Shown here: positions 3,801-9,389 of the stretch, piece by piece | Layout: each line of letters opens with the position of its first letter | Position numbering within the stretch: the first letter of the stretch is position 1 | UHGV virus genome: UHGV-0128973 | Direction: 5' to 3' (one strand) | DNA length: 64,000 nucleotides | DNA from: a virus | Made by a program: the position numbers and the translations under genes | The notes under the pieces: generated by a model | Databases searched by the model: none | Seen by the model: only the letters and a program-made list of their open reading frames with translations | Told to the model about the DNA's origin: nothing

Positions 3801-4698
3801 GCACTGGAAAAACATTACTATTTATAAACTTTCTCGTGAAGCGGATCTGACCGACTTAGAAGATAAAAAGAAAATGATCCTTTTCACGCCATGCGGTAGT
3901 CAGGATATGGCCAAGTTCGGTTTTGTATCTCCATTTGGTGATAATTCCGAAGTTATCGCTATGCATGGAAATGGTTTTATCCTTGTTGAAGCAAAGCGCG
4001 AAACAAAAATCCTTCCCCCGCCGGTTATCCAGCGAGCTATTCAAGAAAAAATTGAAAAACTCGAGCAAGAACAAGCGCGTAAACTGAAGAAAACAGAGAA
4101 GGACTCCCTGAAAGACGAAGTTCTGCATTCTCTTCTGCCACGGGCGTTTTCAAAGTTTTCTGTTATCCAGGCGATCTACGACGGTTCAACTAAACGTATC
4201 TATATCAATGCCAGCGCGCGGCAGGCAGAGGATATGCTCGCGCTTATGCGTAAATCTCTGGGTTCTCTTCCTGTTGTTCCCCTAAGTGTTGAAAATCCCA
4301 TTGAATTAACGCTGACCGACTGGGTACGTGATGGTAGTGCTCCACAGGGATTTCAAATGGGGGATGCGGCAGAACTTAAGGCAGTGCTTGAGGATGGCGG
4401 TATTGCCCGAGTGAAAAAGCAGGATTTGGGAAGCGATGAAATTTCCACACACCTGGAAGCTGGCAAGCTCGTTACTAAGTTGGCACTCGACTGGCAGAAC
4501 CGCATTAAATTTACACTGGACCATAACTTCAGCCTTACCAGCGTCAAATTTGCGGATGAATTGCTTGAGCAGAACTCTGATATTGATAGTGAAGATGTTG
4601 CGCAGCGACTGGACGCAGATTTCTTCCTGTTGACCAGTGAAATTTCGTGCCTGGTTGATGCTCTGGTAAATGCCCTTGGTGGAGAGGCTAAGCAGTGA
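3793..4698 (+). CDS. hrdC: RdgC-like recombination-associated protein
   Basis: [16 protein letters not shown]...[15 protein letters not shown] closely parallels E. coli RdgC N-terminus; ~301 aa from internal Met of ORF 3679..4698. Confidence 0.8.
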
Positions 4699-6959
4699 AA
4701 GAGCTGTGCTATGGATCTGTTTGCAGTGGAATTGAAGCCGCGAGTATTGCCTGGGAACCGTTGGGTATGCGTCCGGCGTGGTTTGCTGAAATCGAGCCTT
4801 TTCCATCTGCCGTTCTTGCGCACCGCTGGCCCCATGTCGCCAACCTTGGCGACATGACAAAACTTGCCAAAAAAGTCCTGGCTGGGGAAATCGAATCCCC
4901 TGATGTGCTCGTCGGGGGTACGCCTTGTCAGGCATTCAGTATCGCGGGCTTACGTGGTGGGCTTGATGATGAACGCGGCGCGCTAACTTTGAAGTATGTG
5001 GAGCTTGCAAATGCAATTGACGACAAACGGTCTGAGTCCTTCCTCAAACCGACAGTTATCGTCTGGGAAAATGTCCCAGGAGTCCTGTCATCGGCAGATA
5101 ACGCCTTCGGATGTTTCCTTGCCGGATTGGCTGGAGAAGATGCGCCATTTGAACCAGGTGATCGACCTGAATCAGGAAAAAGTAACGCGTTCTGGCGGTG
5201 GGATGGCAAAACCGGTTGCCATGCTCCAAAGTGGCCGCAGTGTGGTTGTATTTATGGACCGCAGCGAAAGGTGGCCTGGAGAATCCTTGATGCCCAATAC
5301 TTCGGAGTGGCACAACGACGCCGACGCGTGTTTGTTGTCGCAAGTGCTCGAACAGACCTCGATCCCGCAACGGTACTTTTTGAGTTCGAAGGCGTGCGCC
5401 GGAATATTGCGCCGAGCCGAAAAAAGAAGGAAATCGCTTCCGCCATTATTGCAAATGGCGCTGCAATCAGTGGCGAAAGCCTAAATCCATGCCTACACGC
5501 TGACATGCCACCCGGTATGAAATCGACGAAAGCCGTAAACGCTTTCAGGATGGCGGCATTTGGGGAATATATTGACGATGAAACCGCATCGACAGTAAAG
5601 GCAAGAGATTTTAAAGATGCCACTGACCTTGCCGTTTTTAGCAGCACAGGAGCAGGTTTTTGGTCAGAAGGGCATGGTACATTGCGGGCACGTGAGCAAG
5701 AAAGCCATGAGCATCTTGTTACATTGGCTTTTCCTGAGCGTATGAGCGGTACACAACATGCTGCAACTAAGAATACTTCACCATCTCTAATGGCTAAAAA
5801 TCCAACAGCTGTATGCTATGAAGTAAGAAACGCAGAAGTAGCTGTCCGCCGTCTTACCCCTGTCGAATGTGAAAGGCTGCAAGGTTTTCCTGATGGGCAT
5901 ACGTTGATCCCGACGGAAAAGCGTAAAAAAGTTAATTCAGATGAACTGGCATATCTTCGCAATCACTATCCAGATTTAAGCGAAGAAGAGGCCGCGATGC
6001 TTGCAGCTGACGGACCGCGTTACAAAGCGATCGGCAATAGTATGGCAATACCAGTAATGTGCTGGATTGGCGATCGGATTACTAAGGCCGTATGTCGGCA
6101 GAAAGAAGGAAGTGAAACAAAAGAGCGAAAAGTTAAACCAGCGGCAGAATTCGAACGGTCCATATTCAAATGGGCTGGTGGAAAATTTGGTGTTCTGGAA
6201 CAAATCTTTCGCTATTTGCCAGAAGGGAAGCGCCTGATTGAACCTTTCGTTGGTGGCGGAGCTGTCTTCATGAATGCCGGATACCAGGAAAATCTGCTAA
6301 ATGATGTGAATGCTGACCTGATTAACTTTTACAAGACTCTGCAACGCGAGGCGCATTCACTTATCACTCTGGCACATCGTTTCTTCCAGGACTACAACAC
6401 GCAGGAAGGATACCTGGCAGTACGGAATGCGTTTAACAAACAAGTCTATGATGATTTACATCGCGCAGCGGCGTTTTTGTTCCTGAACCGACATTGTTTT
6501 AACGGATTGACGCGTTACAACCAAGCCGGTGAGTTCAATGTCGGTTATGGGAAGTATAAAACTCCGTATTTCCCATTGCAGGAGATGGAAGCCTTCCTTG
6601 GTGCGGAAGGGCGTTCTGAGTTTGTATGTGGTGATTTTGCTGCGGTGATTGAAGCTGCCGGAGAAGGAGATGTCATCTTTTGCGATCCGCCGTATGAACC
6701 GCTCCCAAATACAGAGGGATTCACGAACTATTCCGGTCATGACTTTAAGTTTGAAGAGCAAAAACGCCTGGTGTCTCTGTTGACGGATGCTCATCGCCGA
6801 GGTGCAAAGGTTCTCATTACTAACAGTGGCGCGCCAAACATCAGAGAACTTTATCAGGACAGTGGCTTCAGAGTGGAACCTCTTTTTGCCAGACGTTCTG
6901 TGTCTTGTAAGGGGGACACTCGAGGTGTTGCTCATGACGTTATAGCAATATTGCTCTAA
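4695..6959 (+). CDS. dmt: Bifunctional DNA methyltransferase Dmt (N-terminal C5-cytosine MTase-like, C-terminal Dam-like N6-adenine MTase)
   Basis: 754 aa; [11 protein letters not shown] and ENV motifs (C5-MTase) then FKWAGGK and DPPY motifs (Dam-type); GTG start with RBS GGAGAGG. Confidence 0.9.
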
Positions 6960-6967
6960 TAAATTTA
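6951..6967 (+). promoter_or_regulatory. C1 operator (perfect ATTGCTCTAATAAATTT) overlapping the dmt stop codon
   Basis: Exact 17-bp consensus read in sequence. Confidence 0.65.
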
Positions 6968-7143
6968 TTAGTGTAATATCGCCTCAATGAATCGTGATTT
7001 ATAGAGCGATTTAGCTGTTAGCCGCGACAGGCGCGGCGGCAAGTATGGCGGGGTAGTGACTCCTTCCCCCTCATGACGCCGAGTTGCCAGGTTGACCATA
7101 CGCCTAAGTGGCAACACCGAAGTGCGTTACGAGCTTCCAGTTT

Positions 7144-7169
7144 GCCCATCTTCGGGTGGGCGTTTTTTT
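7144..7169 (+). terminator. Rho-independent terminator downstream of dmt
   Basis: GCCCA-loop-TGGGC hairpin followed by GTTTTTTT. Confidence 0.6.
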
Positions 7170-7634
7170 CAGGGTTTTCGTCATGGTTAGCGACTTTGCG
7201 GCGGTTTAGAAACTGACCATTAAAGTAAATGCAAACGATGATCTGATGATGGTAGCGGCCTAAGAAGCCAGACGCCACGGGGTATGAGTCGTCCCCCGTC
7301 AAAAAATCGACCGCAGAGTGTCCCCGTCTGTGTATTAGGGAACGGGGAGGCACAACAGGTAAGGGCGCTGGTGTGATTAACCAGATGAACGAGAAGGGGC
7401 CATCTGTTGGTCAGCGTCCTTTCCTGTTGCGTCTTCTTTTCAGCGTAACAGCGGTGCTTAACAGCACTTTGGGTACAGTTCCACGAATTTACGGGTATAT
7501 CCCGTCATGCTGAAAGCGCTAATCACGCTGGAAGCCAGGGTTATGCATCCCCTGTTACCGAATTGCAGCCAGGGCGCGGTGCGCCGAAAAGCATACGGAG
7601 GTGGAAGCCCTCGCCGGAGACGTACCCGGCAAGT

Positions 7635-7709
7635 GATGGTGTAGCTCAGCGGTAGAGCAGTTGGCTGTTAACCAACTGGTCGGTGGTTCGAATCCACCCA
7701 CCATCGCCA
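7635..7709 (+). tRNA. tRNA-Asn (anticodon GUU)
   Basis: Cloverleaf folded by eye: acceptor GATGGTG/CACCATC, anticodon loop CTGTTAA, T-arm GGTGG-TTCGAAT-CCACC, encoded CCA. Confidence 0.85.
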
Positions 7710-7714
7710 ATTTA

Positions 7715-7801
7715 GGGGAGTTAGTCCGTAGGGGTAGCGGGGTAGACTGTAAATCTACTGTCATTGCGACTCGGGTGGTTCGACTCCATCACTCCCCACC
7801 A
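7715..7801 (+). tRNA. tRNA-Tyr-like (anticodon GUA, long variable arm); possibly degenerate
   Basis: Acceptor GGGGAGT/ACTCCCC, anticodon arm GTAGA-CTGTAAA-TCTAC and variable arm resemble E. coli tRNA-Tyr; D-arm irregular. Confidence 0.45.
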
Positions 7802-7805
7802 AATT

Positions 7806-7881
7806 GCCGGTTTAGCTCAGTTGGTAGAGCAGTCGCTTTGTAAGCGAATGGTCAGCGGTTCGATCCCGTTAACCGGCACCA
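7806..7881 (+). tRNA. tRNA-Thr (anticodon UGU)
   Basis: Acceptor GCCGGTT/AACCGGC, anticodon loop TTTGTAA, T-loop TTCGATC, encoded CCA. Confidence 0.8.
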
Positions 7882-8476
7882 ACACAACAGGTAAGAGCAT
7901 TTGTAGAGTTCGACTCTCTACCGTGGGCTTTTTCCCGCGATGCGAGCCATAAATGCTCTTACCGTTGTGATGAAGTGCAGCTCTTAGAAGCAACCAGAAG
8001 ATAAGCATCTGGCTTCACAACATAAACCGCAGGAACGACCAATAAACGGTAGTCCGTATGGAGAACACCCCGTTGAGGAAGAGGCCTGGCCGGAACCGTA
8101 ACCGGCACTACAACGTTGAGAACACTGGCGTAACGGGGTCATATCCCAATCTACGAATAAATGTTGCGTTGCAGCGTGACAACCAGTGTTCTCAACATTG
8201 TGGTGAATGCACAGGCTGATGTGCCGCAACTACAGTAGTGCGCGCTTTGCGGGGCTTGCTACAACCCTGTGTCGGAGTTCAGCACCGACCATCACAGTTT
8301 GATTCTCTGGCATGAGCATAACGCTGAAATAAGTCCAGCCTGGTGCGGCCCGATCACCCGCCGTTAGCTCCACGAAACGGAGCACGTAACAGGTAAGAGC
8401 ATTCTCCTGTAACGGGTTCATATCCCAATCTACAGGTCCACCAGGAATGCTCTTTCCGTTGCGGTGAATGCGGCTA
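7882..8476 (+). repeat. Three imperfect copies of a ~95-105 nt hairpin element (7882-7975, 8105-8215, 8385-8476) carrying tRNA-like fragments
   Basis: Shared AACAGGTAAGAGCAT starts, cores AACGGGKTCATATCCCAATCTAC, ends GTGRTGAATGC; long inverted repeats; T-arm-like GTAGAG-TTCGACT-CTCTAC in copy 1. Confidence 0.55.
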
Positions 8477-8613
8477 AGCGCACGCGGGGAAATGGTTATA
8501 TCAGTCCATTCATTTCTCCTTGTTTCCCCGTCCACGGTGGATAACCAGCCAAAGGACACCGGGAGGCACCCGGCACCGCAACCTTATTTCCCAACCAGTA
8601 ATGAGGTTAATAA

Positions 8614-9039
8614 ATGCTCGGCATTCTCAAAAAGAAATTCCGCAAAGCGGCTGGCGGAGTCAAGAAGATGGAAAACCGTGATGCGGTGGAAGCGACTGTC
8701 TGGGGCGCATATTCCATTGCATACTCTGACGGCACCTGCGATGCGAAAGAAATTGCAGTATTGGAAAAAACCATTGCAGCACTTCCTGCCTTTGCGCCGT
8801 TCTCCGGTGAAATTGCCCAGATGAGCGCCAATATTCGCGCTCAATATGAAGCCTCGCCGCGCCGAGCGAATGCCCAGGCTTTACGTGAACTGGCTGACGT
8901 GTCTGGAACTAATGATGCGGTAGATGTTCTGTGCCTATGCATTGATATTGCTGACCAGGATGGCATTGGGGCAGAAGAGCAGGAGCAATTGAAGAAAATT
9001 GCCCAGGCTCTTCAATTGCCACTGGAACAGTATATCTGA
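8614..9039 (+). CDS. TerB-like (tellurite-resistance domain) protein
   Basis: 141-aa ORF with TerB-type helical signature; true start may be internal (MENRDAVEA). Confidence 0.5.
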   Translation: MLGILKKKFRKAAGGVKKMENRDAVEATVWGAYSIAYSDGTCDAKEIAVLEKTIAALPAFAPFSGEIAQMSANIRAQYEASPRRANAQALRELADVSGTNDAVDVLCLCIDIADQDGIGAEEQEQLKKIAQALQLPLEQYI

Positions 9040-9313: not shown

Positions 9314-9389
9314 GGCCCTTTAGCTCAGTGGTTAGAGCTGGCGACTCATAATCGCACGGTCACCAGTTCAAGTCCGGTAGGGGCCACCA
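9314..9389 (+). tRNA. tRNA-Ile (anticodon CAU, lysidine-type) / tRNA-Met-like
   Basis: Near-identical in arrangement to E. coli tRNA-Ile2 as remembered: GGCCCTTTAGCTCAGTGGTTAGAGC..CTCATAA..TTCAAGT..AGGGGCCACCA. Confidence 0.8.

What the first reader, a model, noticed from the sequence alone, without database searches (positions are those of the whole stretch)
7355..8480. Family of imperfect hairpin repeats with tRNA-like fragments around the tRNA cluster
Three ~100-nt units (7882-7975, 8105-8215, 8385-8476) begin with AACAGGTAAGAGCAT-like sequence, contain the core AACGGGKTCATATCCCAATCTAC, and end GTGRTGAATGC. Each has 10-16 bp inverted repeats, for example GTTGAGAACACTGG and CCAGTGTTCTCAAC. 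Copy 1 holds a canonical T-arm (GTAGAG-TTCGACT-CTCTAC); 8090-8107 resembles the tRNA-Thr 3' end; a further AACAGGTAAGGGCG start occurs at 7361 upstream of tRNA-Asn. The 730-bp stretch has no convincing protein-coding capacity.
Basis: seen in the sequence. Interest (0 to 1): 0.5.

Follow-up and report, generated by a model that had tools for sequence, protein, structure and literature searches.

The report
Long RNA hairpins punctuating phage tRNA cluster
The non-coding stretch around the tRNA genes of this P1-like phage holds four members of a conserved family of long hairpins. In many related phages such hairpins sit directly after tRNA genes, so they are most likely structured RNA modules of the tRNA/ban transcript rather than the small proteins (Plp, Upl) annotated here in phage P1.

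Summary
The window is the C1-controlled ban operon of a P1-like phage. It carries four long hairpins, not three: 7344-7438, 7880-7972, 8106-8205 and 8385-8463. Stems are 18-29 bp over variable apical parts. The base is conserved: CA-CAAC-(A)-GNTRAG...CTYANC-GTTG-TG-RTGAA.

The same family interleaves with tRNA genes in P1-, D6- and SSU5-like phage-plasmids and in N4-like phages. In 204 sequences, 145 hairpins start within 12 nt of a tRNA 3' end and only one starts at 13-100 nt.

Stems covary between units (17 of 20 pairs). Within orthologues, substitutions mostly keep pairing through G·U on the tRNA-sense strand only. That points to a structure in a single strand of tRNA sense, most simply the transcript.

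The minus-strand ORFs annotated in P1 (plp, upl) show no coding signature. No Rfam family matches the hairpins. The tRNA likeness is limited to a T-arm in unit 1 and a 13-nt tRNA-Thr 3'-end remnant before unit 2.

Best reading, inferred rather than shown: processing or insulation hairpins of the polycistronic tRNA-mRNA transcript, RNase III-type substrates that may yield stable by-product RNAs like T4 RNAC/RNAD. I rate it a new variant of a known kind, of moderate interest.

The parts
7344..7438 (+). Hairpin unit 0. Family core is 7353-7429 (CAACAGGTAAGG...CCTTTCCTGTTG). The stem is extended to 29 bp by a G·U-rich helix (GGGGAGGCA / CGUCUUCUU). It lies about 200 nt upstream of tRNA-Asn.
   Evidence: I2; -48.4 kcal/mol, z -5.9; minus strand only -33.6; G·U to G-C changes, two pairs with compensatory changes.
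7635..7881 (+). tRNA cluster: tRNA-Asn(GUU) 7635-7709, tRNA-Tyr(GUA) 7715-7801, tRNA-Thr(UGU) 7806-7881.
   Evidence: 75.5, 41.9 and 67.2 bits to Rfam tRNA.
7880..7972 (+). Hairpin unit 1. It starts at the CA of the tRNA-Thr CCA end. Family core is 7885-7967 (CAACAGGTAAGAGCATTT...AAATGCTCTTACCGTTG). The apical part has a T-arm-like hairpin at 7903-7921 and a second hairpin at 7922-7939.
   Evidence: I5; -44 kcal/mol, z -6.5. P1 itself has a 65%-identical variant at the same place.
8096..8108 (+). 13-nt remnant of a tRNA-Thr 3' end (CCGTAACCGGCAC) that abuts unit 2.
   Evidence: p about 0.04. In SSU5-like relatives the orthologous hairpin directly follows a real tRNA-Thr ...CCGGCACCA.
8106..8205 (+). 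Hairpin unit 2. It has a 23-bp stem (CACTACAACGTTGAGAACACTGG / CCAGTGTTCTCAACATTGTGGTG). The apical part has two hairpins, including GGG-GTCATAT-CCC.
   Evidence: I1; -49.2 kcal/mol, z -5.6; 34 pairs; 51 cells changed on one side but still paired, 5 broken.
8385..8463 (+). Hairpin unit 3 (CGTAACAGGTAAGAGCATTC...GAATGCTCTTTCCGTTGCG). Its apical hairpin carries GGG-TTCATAT-CCC.
   Evidence: I10; -37.2 kcal/mol, z -4.1; minus strand z -1.6; in P7 and plasmid L010 a tRNA-Ser plus its own hairpin takes this place, and the sequences rejoin inside the 3' arm.
8460..8580 (+). STnc100-like structured leader of tciA. It shares UGCGGUG with the 3' end of unit 3 and closes with CACCGCA after a GC hairpin.
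   Evidence: RF02076, 37.8 bits against gathering 47, E 6e-6, model positions 31-147 of 206. (43 bits in P7).
6950..6977 (.). C1 operator pair Oban, with promoter Pban. Transcription of the whole array and of tciA-ban starts here.
   Evidence: 0 and 2 mismatches to the C1 operator consensus. (P1 annotation of Pban/Oban at the homologous place).

Best explanation
The four hairpins belong to a conserved family of structured RNA modules. They are transcribed on the + strand as part of the long untranslated leader of the C1-repressed ban operon: Pban, hairpin 0, tRNA-Asn/Tyr/Thr, hairpins 1-3, STnc100-like leader, tciA, tRNA-Ile2, ban.

Each module is an 18-29 bp near-perfect duplex with a conserved base (CAAC/GTTG plus GNTRAG/CTYANC). 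It is typically placed 0-12 nt after a tRNA, or tRNA remnant, 3' end, so the CCA-proximal bases are drawn into the helix.

The most likely role is punctuation of the polycistronic precursor. The duplexes are of the size cut by a double-strand-specific endonuclease (host RNase III). A cut would free the tRNA 3' trailers for exonucleolytic trimming and separate the tRNA part from the downstream mRNA. The excised hairpins may persist as small stable by-product RNAs, as T4 RNAC and RNAD do. The compact folds would also keep neighbouring tRNAs from misfolding.

- **Shown:** the family, its placement, its conservation, covariation, and selection on the tRNA-sense strand.
- **Inferred:** that it is transcribed, from the P1 operon annotation and the same-strand tRNAs.
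- **Inferred:** which nuclease acts, and whether stable products form.
For: 1. **Structure.** All four units fold far better than shuffles on the + strand, and better than on the minus strand by 2-15 kcal/mol.
2. **Family.** Dozens of sequence variants occur in P1-, D6- and SSU5-like phage-plasmids and in N4-like phages. They share the stem base and differ in stem interior and apex.
3. **Placement.** 145 hairpins start 12 nt or less after a tRNA 3' end (Ser 74, Thr 52, Asn 19), against 1 at 13-100 nt.
4. **Covariation.** 17 of 20 stem pairs change on both sides among 23 unit types, 95.4% of cells are paired, and 0 of 500 shuffles reach this.
5. **Strand-specific constraint.** Within orthologues of units 0 and 2, transitions in stems mostly give G·U or G-C on the + strand. 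By my tally there are about 21 such sites against 4 A·C sites. Across 191 distinct hairpins, 129 fold better on the tRNA strand, with a mean difference of -2.9 kcal/mol.
6. **Context.** The units lie inside an operon whose promoter and operator are at 6950-6977, with all tRNAs and genes on the + strand.
7. **Not coding.** Minus-strand ORFs show no third-position excess (6/4/4 and 8/7/5). The 109-codon frame is broken in 17 of 27 orthologues. There is no Pfam match.
8. **Precedent.** T4 encodes RNAD and RNAC directly after tRNA-Arg in its tRNA cluster. They are transcribed from the tRNA region and their role is unknown (PMC3014915; PMC9697503).
Against: - No expression or cleavage data were available. 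No paper found describes these elements.
- RNase III specificity could not be scored.
- Conserved sequence inside the helix (G5, T7, A9, G10 of the stem) is not explained by a simple 'any duplex' signal and hints at a sequence-specific partner.
- Hairpin 0, and the two upstream hairpins of SSU5-like elements, are not next to a tRNA 3' end.
- Variable sites are not rarer in the stems (4 of 88 nt) than in the rest of the non-coding stretch (30 of 488 nt). Conservation alone therefore does not single the stems out.
- The G·U asymmetry could partly reflect strand-biased mutation.
- The covariation alignment was built from arms chosen as inverted repeats, with 1-3 bulge bases removed for register.
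Confidence: 0.45

Rival explanations
1. The hairpins are passive structural shields or insulators. They fill about 1.6 kb of untranslated leader with stable structure, so that Rho cannot load and terminate before tciA and ban, and so that each tRNA folds independently. No specific cleavage is involved.
For: - The leader from Pban to tciA (6980-8613) is untranslated yet must be read through to express ban.
- D6-like relatives carry three further long hairpins upstream in the same leader.
- SSU5-like elements have the same arrangement between two same-strand genes.
- No boxA-type antitermination site is present to do the job otherwise.
Against: - This does not explain the conserved base sequence.
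- It does not explain the tight abutment to tRNA 3' ends.
- tRNA operons of similar length in bacteria do without such hairpins (general knowledge).
Confidence: 0.15
2. The hairpins are genes for trans-acting or decoy RNAs. They would be excised from the tRNA precursor to act on host or defence factors. Examples are double-stranded RNA decoys, tRNA-like decoys, or base-pairing small RNAs such as the neighbouring STnc100-like element.
For: - Apical parts are variable and unit-specific while stems are kept.
- Unit-1 variants carry canonical T-arms.
- The locus also holds a dicF-like element (by the P1 annotation only; Rfam DicF did not match) and an STnc100-like element.
- STnc100 and PasD are prophage small RNAs with targets (bioRxiv 10.64898/2026.05.13.724894).
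- Phage tRNAs are known counter-defence tools (PMC11464382, listed).
Against: - No target complementarity was tested.
- The apical regions, where a seed would sit, are the least conserved part.
- No Rfam family matches.
Confidence: 0.12
3. The hairpins are neutral leftovers of repeated duplication, decay and recombination of 'tRNA + trailer' modules, with no present function. Pairing would be maintained only because palindromes homogenise themselves.
For: - The tRNA content of the locus varies: Tyr is present or absent, Ser is present or absent, and Arg replaces Asn in L011.
- A tRNA-Thr 3' remnant precedes unit 2.
- Unit 3 and 'tRNA-Ser + hairpin' replace each other, with a breakpoint in the shared 3' arm.
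- Module number varies (JL22 has an extra one).
- Stems are not more conserved than spacers.
Against: - Pairing is kept across very different stem sequences and across phage groups as distant as P1 and N4.
- Substitutions are asymmetric and G·U-preserving on one strand, which DNA palindrome homogenisation does not predict.
- The hairpins stay intact where the adjoining tRNA has decayed.
Confidence: 0.13
4. The hairpins are DNA-level recombination sites that make tRNA genes exchangeable cassettes. They would be folded single-stranded sites analogous to integron attC, with CACAAC/GTTGTG as core.
For: - Each tRNA (Thr, Ser, Asn) tends to carry its own trailing hairpin.
- Size (65-122 nt), a variable centre and conserved inverse cores resemble attC.
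- ACACAAC and GTTGTGA each match RYYYAAC/GTTRRRY at 5-6 of 7 positions (sequence inspection).
- One replacement breakpoint lies in a hairpin arm.
Against: - Stems are near-perfect duplexes, without the extrahelical bases and unpaired spacer that define attC.
- The tRNA-Tyr insertion is not bounded by hairpins.
- The left breakpoint of the Ser/unit-3 swap is not in a hairpin.
- No integron integrase was found in the annotation of the flanking regions of the P1-type loci fetched.
- Ordinary homologous recombination between similar arms explains the mosaics.
Confidence: 0.08
5. The stretch encodes small proteins on the minus strand, as annotated in P1 (Plp lipoprotein, Upl).
For: - The P1 record annotates plp and upl here.
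- The window has minus-strand ORFs at 7984-8229 (81 aa) and 8230-8559 (109 aa).
Against: - There is no codon-position bias in substitutions.
- A 1-nt indel truncates the frame in 17 of 27 orthologues.
- ORF lengths and frames differ between P1, JL22 and the window, because unit 1 is replaced by variants of other length.
- P1 plp overlaps tRNA-Thr.
- No Pfam family matches.
Confidence: 0.02

Closest known systems
Bacteriophage T4 small stable RNAs RNAC (species 1) and RNAD (species 2)
   Same: - They are encoded inside a phage tRNA cluster, on the tRNA strand, starting 1-6 nt after the preceding tRNA or RNA.
- They are about 120-140 nt and structured. RNAC carries a T-arm.
- They are transcribed from the tRNA region and their function is unknown (PMC3014915; PMC9697503).
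   Different: - No sequence or model similarity was found (model R1 gave nothing at rnaC/rnaD).
- T4 RNAC folds as a branched tRNA-like molecule and RNAD folds weakly (z -0.8). Neither is a single 20-bp-plus hairpin with the CAAC/GTTG base.
- Expression of the P1-type elements is not shown.
RNase III processing hairpins (rRNA operon stems, T7 early mRNA sites, T4 tRNA precursor)
   Same: - They are about two helical turns of near-perfect duplex in an untranslated polycistronic transcript, between functional RNAs.
- The comparison with known RNase III sites rests on general knowledge.
   Different: - No cleavage data exist for the P1-type elements.
- The P1-type stems have a conserved sequence at the base and large variable apices, which is not typical of known sites.
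E. coli tyrT distal repeats / rtT RNA (Rfam RF00391)
   Same: - A tRNA gene is followed by repeated units that begin with a copy of the tRNA 3' end and give a processed RNA (general knowledge).
- Here unit 2 is preceded by a 13-nt copy of the tRNA-Thr 3' end.
   Different: - There is no Rfam rtT match in the region even at E up to 5.
- The tyrT units are 178-bp direct repeats, not hairpins.
- Only one of the four units here has the tRNA-end copy.
STnc100 / PasD prophage small RNAs (Rfam RF02076)
   Same: - The segment 8460-8580, right after unit 3, matches the STnc100 model (E 6e-6).
- It shares the GGUGAAUGC motif that ends the hairpin units.
- The family is prophage-borne.
   Different: - The match is below the gathering score (37.8 against 47) and partial (model positions 31-147 of 206).
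- The hairpins themselves do not match it.
Integron attC sites
   Same: - Imperfect palindromes of 60-120 nt.
- Conserved inverse cores and a variable centre.
- Each follows one 'cassette'.
   Different: - No extrahelical bases or unpaired central spacer.
- Cores match only 5-6 of 7 positions.
- No integrase was seen in the flanking annotation of the P1-type loci fetched.
- Strand asymmetry fits the transcript strand.

Membership tests
tRNA (Rfam RF00005 / ARAGORN) | Cloverleaf match to the tRNA covariance model or ARAGORN call | tested here: not met
   Only 7635-7709, 7715-7801, 7806-7881 and 9314-9389 are called. None of the hairpin units or spacers matches, even at E up to 5.
tRNA-like element | Canonical T-arm (stem of 4 bp or more, TTCRANY loop) in the unit | tested here: inconclusive
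   Present in unit 1 (7903-7921) and in P1's unit-1 variant. It occurs in only 6 of 165 distinct family hairpins (shuffles 0.11). Units 2 and 3 have a non-canonical GGG-KTCATAT-CCC.
STnc100 sRNA (RF02076) | Score at or above the Rfam gathering threshold (47 bits) | tested here: not met
   8460-8580 scores 37.8 bits (E 6e-6) over model positions 31-147 of 206. P7 scores 43 bits. The segment is related but sub-threshold, and it is not part of the hairpins.
T4-type tRNA-cluster stable RNAs (RNAC/RNAD) | Encoded on the tRNA strand directly downstream of a tRNA within a phage tRNA cluster | tested here: met
   Unit 1 starts at the CCA of tRNA-Thr. Across the family, 145 hairpins start within 12 nt of a tRNA end. 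T4 rnaD starts 1 nt after tRNA-Arg.
T4-type tRNA-cluster stable RNAs (RNAC/RNAD) | Accumulates as a discrete stable RNA processed from the tRNA precursor | not testable with these tools
   No expression data for P1-type elements were found.
T4-type tRNA-cluster stable RNAs (RNAC/RNAD) | Sequence or structure homology to rnaC/rnaD | tested here: not met
   Model R1 gives no hit at rnaC/rnaD, though that model was weak. The predicted folds differ.
RNase III substrate | Duplex of about 20 bp or more in a transcript | tested here: met
   Stems are 18-29 bp. Transcription is inferred from the operon context.
RNase III substrate | Staggered double-strand cleavage dependent on rnc | not testable with these tools
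   This needs end-mapping in wild-type and rnc strains.
Integron attC | R''/R' cores RYYYAAC / GTTRRRY | tested here: inconclusive
   ACACAAC and GTTGTGA match 6 of 7 and 5 of 7 positions. Some members have CACAGC/GCTGTG.
Integron attC | Extrahelical bases and unpaired central spacer in the folded strand | tested here: not met
   Stems are 95% paired over 20 positions, with at most one bulged A.
Dispersed repeat (REP / MITE-like) | Copies dispersed over the genome | tested here: not met
   All family copies in the 64-kb window lie in 7344-8463. In related genomes, 528 of 643 long hairpins are within 1.5 kb of a tRNA (the loci were selected by motif).
Nus antitermination boxA / C1 operator | Match to TGCTCTTTAACAA or ATTGCTCTAATAAATTT with 3 or fewer mismatches in the arms | tested here: not met
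   Neither pattern matches inside 7340-8480.

The most novel reading that the evidence does not exclude
'tRNA gene + trailing long hairpin' is a conserved, exchangeable module shared by unrelated enterobacterial phages (P1-, D6-, SSU5- and N4-like). In it the hairpin is an active partner rather than a passive spacer. It could be a folded recombination site that makes tRNA genes mobile cassettes. It could instead be an excised structured RNA with its own sequence-specific protein partner, for example an anti-defence decoy that accompanies the counter-defence tRNAs.
Probability: 0.12. Interest if true: 0.8.

Novelty: new variant of a known kind. Interest (0 to 1): 0.5.

Why it matters
- **Annotation.** P1 is a textbook phage, and this stretch has been annotated since 2004 as two hypothetical proteins on the wrong strand. 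The evidence here says it is an array of conserved RNA hairpins tied to tRNA genes.
- **Biology.** If the hairpins direct processing, they explain how a repressor-controlled promoter can deliver tRNAs, small RNAs and the ban helicase mRNA from one transcript. They also give a handle on the unexplained small RNAs of phage tRNA clusters, such as T4 RNAC and RNAD.
- **Evolution.** The modules mark how tRNA genes are shuffled among phage-plasmids. That is relevant now that phage tRNAs are recognised as counter-defence tools.

Tried and rejected
- **Rfam scans.** I scanned the region and five related loci. Only tRNAs and a sub-threshold STnc100 hit appeared. The miRNA-precursor hits merely reflect hairpin shape. 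DicF did not match the 'dicF-like region' annotated in P1.
- **boxA (Nus antitermination).** The arm sequence TGCTCTT(T/A)CC resembles it, but no match with 3 or fewer mismatches lies in the region.
- **C1 operator similarity of the 3' arms.** Rejected. Operators are found only at 6950-6977 and elsewhere in the window.
- **Covariance model.** Model R1 was built from arms-only constructs. The real units score only 13-14 bits (E about 0.2) because of the long apical inserts and bulges, so it could not be used to define membership.
- **Decayed tRNA-Ser upstream of unit 3.** The alignment looked suggestive, but the score is not above shuffles (949 of 2000). I dropped it.
- **Generality of T-arms in the apices.** Rejected (6 of 165).
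- **Genome-contig scan with the generic base motif.** There were six hits. Two are P1-like Escherichia contigs. The other four (an archaeal MAG, a Cellvibrionaceae MAG, Ewingella, Citrobacter) show no hairpin at the match and look like chance.
- **Whole-region folding of both strands.** This does not discriminate (-510 against -515 kcal/mol).
- **Literature.** Searches for P1 ban operon tRNA, phage-plasmid tRNA hairpins, and RNase III in phage tRNA clusters found nothing on these elements. The P1 genome paper (PMC523184) is not held.
Full report
**Context**

The window is a P1-like phage (Punavirus). The finding lies between dmt (4695-6959) and tciA (8614-9039). This is the ban operon, which in the P1 record starts at the C1-controlled promoter and operator Pban/Oban.

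Perfect and 2-mismatch C1 operators lie at 6950-6977. ARAGORN and Rfam call tRNA-Asn 7635-7709, tRNA-Tyr 7715-7801, tRNA-Thr 7806-7881 and a CAU-anticodon tRNA at 9314-9389. P1 annotates the last as tRNA-Ile2. All are on the + strand, as are tciA and ban.

The P1 record annotates two ORFs on the opposite strand across the finding, plp and upl.

**Checking the observation**

- Unit 2 arms are 23 nt at 91% complementarity.
- Unit 1 arms are 13/13 and extend to a helix of about 20 bp from 7880 to 7972.
- Unit 3 spans 8385-8463.
- The 'further start' upstream of tRNA-Asn is a complete fourth hairpin at 7344-7438 with a 29-bp stem.

As + strand RNA they fold at -48.4, -44.0, -49.2 and -37.2 kcal/mol, with z-scores of -5.9, -6.5, -5.6 and -4.1. 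None of 200 shuffles does as well. The minus strand folds 2-15 kcal/mol worse.

- AACAGGTAAGAGCATT is exact in units 1 and 3.
- The 'core' is in units 2 and 3.
- Unit 2 starts CAACGTTGAGAAC.
- The upstream start is at 7354, not 7361.

The T-arm in unit 1 (7903-7921) and the tRNA-Thr-like 13-mer at 8096-8108 are present. In the whole 64-kb window the family occurs only here.

**What it is**

I fetched the homologous stretch from P1, P7, D6, SJ46, JL22 and Ro157c2, from six P1/D6-like plasmids, and from four SSU5-like phage-plasmids. I then scanned them for tRNAs and long hairpins. The result is a much larger family.

Members are hairpins of 65-122 nt. Stems are 18-25 bp or longer, over a variable apex. 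They share a base:

5'-(CA)CAAC-(A)-G-N-T-R-A-G ... C-T-Y-A-N-C-GTTG(TG)-RTGAA-3'

Stem interiors differ between units but stay complementary:
- GGTAAGAGCA / TGCTCTTACC
- GTTGAGAACA / TGTTCTCAAC
- GTTGAGGCCA / TGGCCTCAAC
- GTTGAGCGGT / ACCGCTCAAC
- GATAAGATCA / TGATCTTACC

In the 204 sequences scanned, 528 of 643 long hairpins lie within 1.5 kb of a tRNA. Their placement is sharply bimodal. 145 start 12 nt or less after a tRNA 3' end (tRNA-Ser 74, Thr 52, Asn 19), and one starts at 13-100 nt. The rest follow another hairpin or precede the cluster. These loci were selected by the hairpin motif, so the counts describe the family and are not an unbiased survey.

An N4-like phage, whose Asn and Thr tRNA genes in the matched cluster are 78% identical overall to those here, has the same arrangement.
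- A 94-nt hairpin starts 2 nt after tRNA-Thr.
- A 113-nt hairpin starts after a tRNA-like 3' end. Its base CAAUUCGUAAGAAC / GUUCUUUCGAAUUG resembles CAACAGGUAAGAGC / GCUCUUACCGUUG.
- A third hairpin follows tRNA-Pro.

A T4-like phage (RB18) has a 19-bp-stem hairpin between tRNA-Asn and tRNA-His. One representative genome per bacterial species yielded only P1-like Escherichia contigs.

**Evidence that the structure is selected, and on which strand**

I put 23 unit types in register and counted pairs. 95.4% of cells pair, 17 of 20 pairs change on both sides, and no shuffle of 500 reaches any measure. Sliding the partner drops pairing to 34-52%.

This alignment was made from arms chosen as inverted repeats, with 1-3 bulge bases removed. 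It therefore shows unit-specific complementarity among homologous units rather than an independent discovery of structure.

Orthologues give a more independent test.
- In unit 2 (37 distinct sequences, 34 pairs), 51 cells differ on one side but still pair and 5 are broken.
- In unit 0 (22 sequences, 30 pairs), most changes are G·U to G-C, two pairs show full compensation (C-G to U-A, G-C to A-U), and few are broken.

Counting sites by hand from those tables, about 21 transition sites keep + strand pairing and about 4 give A·C. Half of each would be expected without strand-specific constraint.

Across 191 distinct hairpins, 129 fold better on the tRNA strand. This favours a structure in a single strand of tRNA sense, most simply the transcript. 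A double-stranded DNA site, or the minus-strand mRNA, fits less well. Strand-biased mutation remains a caveat.

**Not coding**

- For the minus-strand ORFs 7984-8229 and 8230-8559, variable sites fall 6/4/4 and 8/7/5 on codon positions 1/2/3.
- A 1-nt indel truncates the second frame after 19-20 codons in 17 of 27 distinct orthologues.
- ORF sizes differ among P1, JL22 and the window, because unit 1 is replaced by variants of different length.
- Nothing matches Pfam.

**Evolutionary picture**

The locus behaves as an array of 'tRNA (or remnant) + trailing hairpin' modules.
- Unit 2 directly follows a real tRNA-Thr in SSU5-like elements. In P1-like genomes it keeps only the last 13 nt of that tRNA.
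- Unit 3 in the window and in P1 is replaced in P7, D6 and plasmid L010 by tRNA-Ser plus its own hairpin. The sequences rejoin inside the 3' arm.
- JL22 has one extra module. L011 has tRNA-Arg in place of tRNA-Asn. tRNA-Tyr is present here but not in P1.
- The shared arms are thus crossover points. The tRNA-Tyr insertion is not hairpin-bounded, and one breakpoint of the Ser swap is outside a hairpin.

**Mechanism**

I commit to RNA-level punctuation of the polycistronic precursor.
- The helices have the length of RNase III substrates.
- They begin at or next to the CCA end, so the 3' trailer is locked in a duplex until it is cut.
- They separate tRNAs from each other and from the downstream mRNA.
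- Excised hairpins may persist as stable RNAs.

T4 gives a precedent. RNAD and RNAC follow tRNA-Arg by 1 and 6 nt, are transcribed from the tRNA region, and have unknown roles (PMC3014915; PMC9697503). Which nuclease acts, and whether products are stable, is inference.

The rivals are listed with their tests: a Rho shield or folding insulator, trans-acting or decoy RNAs, neutral scars, attC-like cassette sites, and minus-strand proteins.

**Comparison with known families**

No Rfam family covers the hairpins. The segment after unit 3 (8460-8580) is a sub-threshold, partial match to STnc100, a prophage small RNA family related to PasD. It shares the GGUGAAUGC motif that ends the units.

I did not file the hairpins under tRNA, STnc100, rtT, attC or REP/MITE, because defining features were tested and not met (see the membership table). 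They work most like the small RNAs of phage tRNA clusters and like RNase III processing stems.

**Verdict**

This is a real, conserved and previously unannotated RNA-structure family tied to phage tRNA genes. The kind is known; the variant, and its breadth across phage-plasmids and N4-like phages, appears to be undescribed. No paper on it was found. Interest is moderate, because function and expression remain untested.

Noticed in passing
window 7715-7801: An 87-nt tRNA-Tyr(GUA) sits between tRNA-Asn and tRNA-Thr. P1, P7, D6, SJ46 and JL22 lack it. It is present in Ro157c2, some P1-like plasmids and SSU5-like elements. The indel is tRNA-sized and not bounded by hairpins. T4-like phages hold an 82%-identical Tyr/Asn stretch.
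   Followed up: partly
window 7075-7170: The region homologous to the one P1 annotates as 'dicF-like' ends in a strong intrinsic-terminator-like hairpin (7143-7162 plus a T7 run), only about 200 nt downstream of Pban. Transcription must read through it to reach the tRNAs and ban. Rfam DicF did not match the region even at E up to 5.
   Followed up: partly
window 8460-8580: A sub-threshold, partial match to the prophage sRNA family STnc100 (37.8 bits, gathering 47) forms the leader of tciA. The model's fold has a 7-bp closing stem with an adjacent GC hairpin, which is tRNA-like in outline. The 5' strand of that stem overlaps the 3' arm of hairpin unit 3, so the two structures may compete.
   Followed up: partly
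L005 2475-2562, L014 2571-2658, L016 2222-2309 (relatives, not in the window): The 87-nt tRNA-Ser(UGA) of P7-, D6- and SSU5-like elements scores best against the Rfam selenocysteine-tRNA model (44-47 bits, gathering 47) rather than the general tRNA model. The D6 record notes that tRNAscan-SE did not call its amino acid.
   Followed up: no
L210 about 1900-1985 (N4-like phage vB_EcoP_3HA13): An unannotated tRNA-like 3' end (…CTGGTTCGAGTCCAGACGCCGGAACCA) lies directly before the second long hairpin. Neither the record nor Rfam (at E 0.01 or less) calls it as a tRNA. It may be a decayed or unusual tRNA.
   Followed up: no
window, 16 sites (e.g. 3428, 6950, 6961, 16909, 22674, 37818, 54124): There are sixteen matches to the C1 repressor operator consensus with 3 or fewer mismatches, against 0.3 expected. 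This is the dispersed operator set expected of a P1-type immunity system.
   Followed up: no
window 8008-8027: CTGGCTTCACAACA matches the sequence that precedes and begins a further family hairpin in SSU5-like element L014 (2381-2483). In the window the hairpin itself is absent, which suggests a deleted module.
   Followed up: no
window 14369-14455: A stretch begins CAACTTGTGAG and ends CTTACCAGTTG, so it fits the loose base-motif regex on both strands. It was not detected as a long hairpin and lies far from any tRNA. It is probably a chance match.
   Followed up: no
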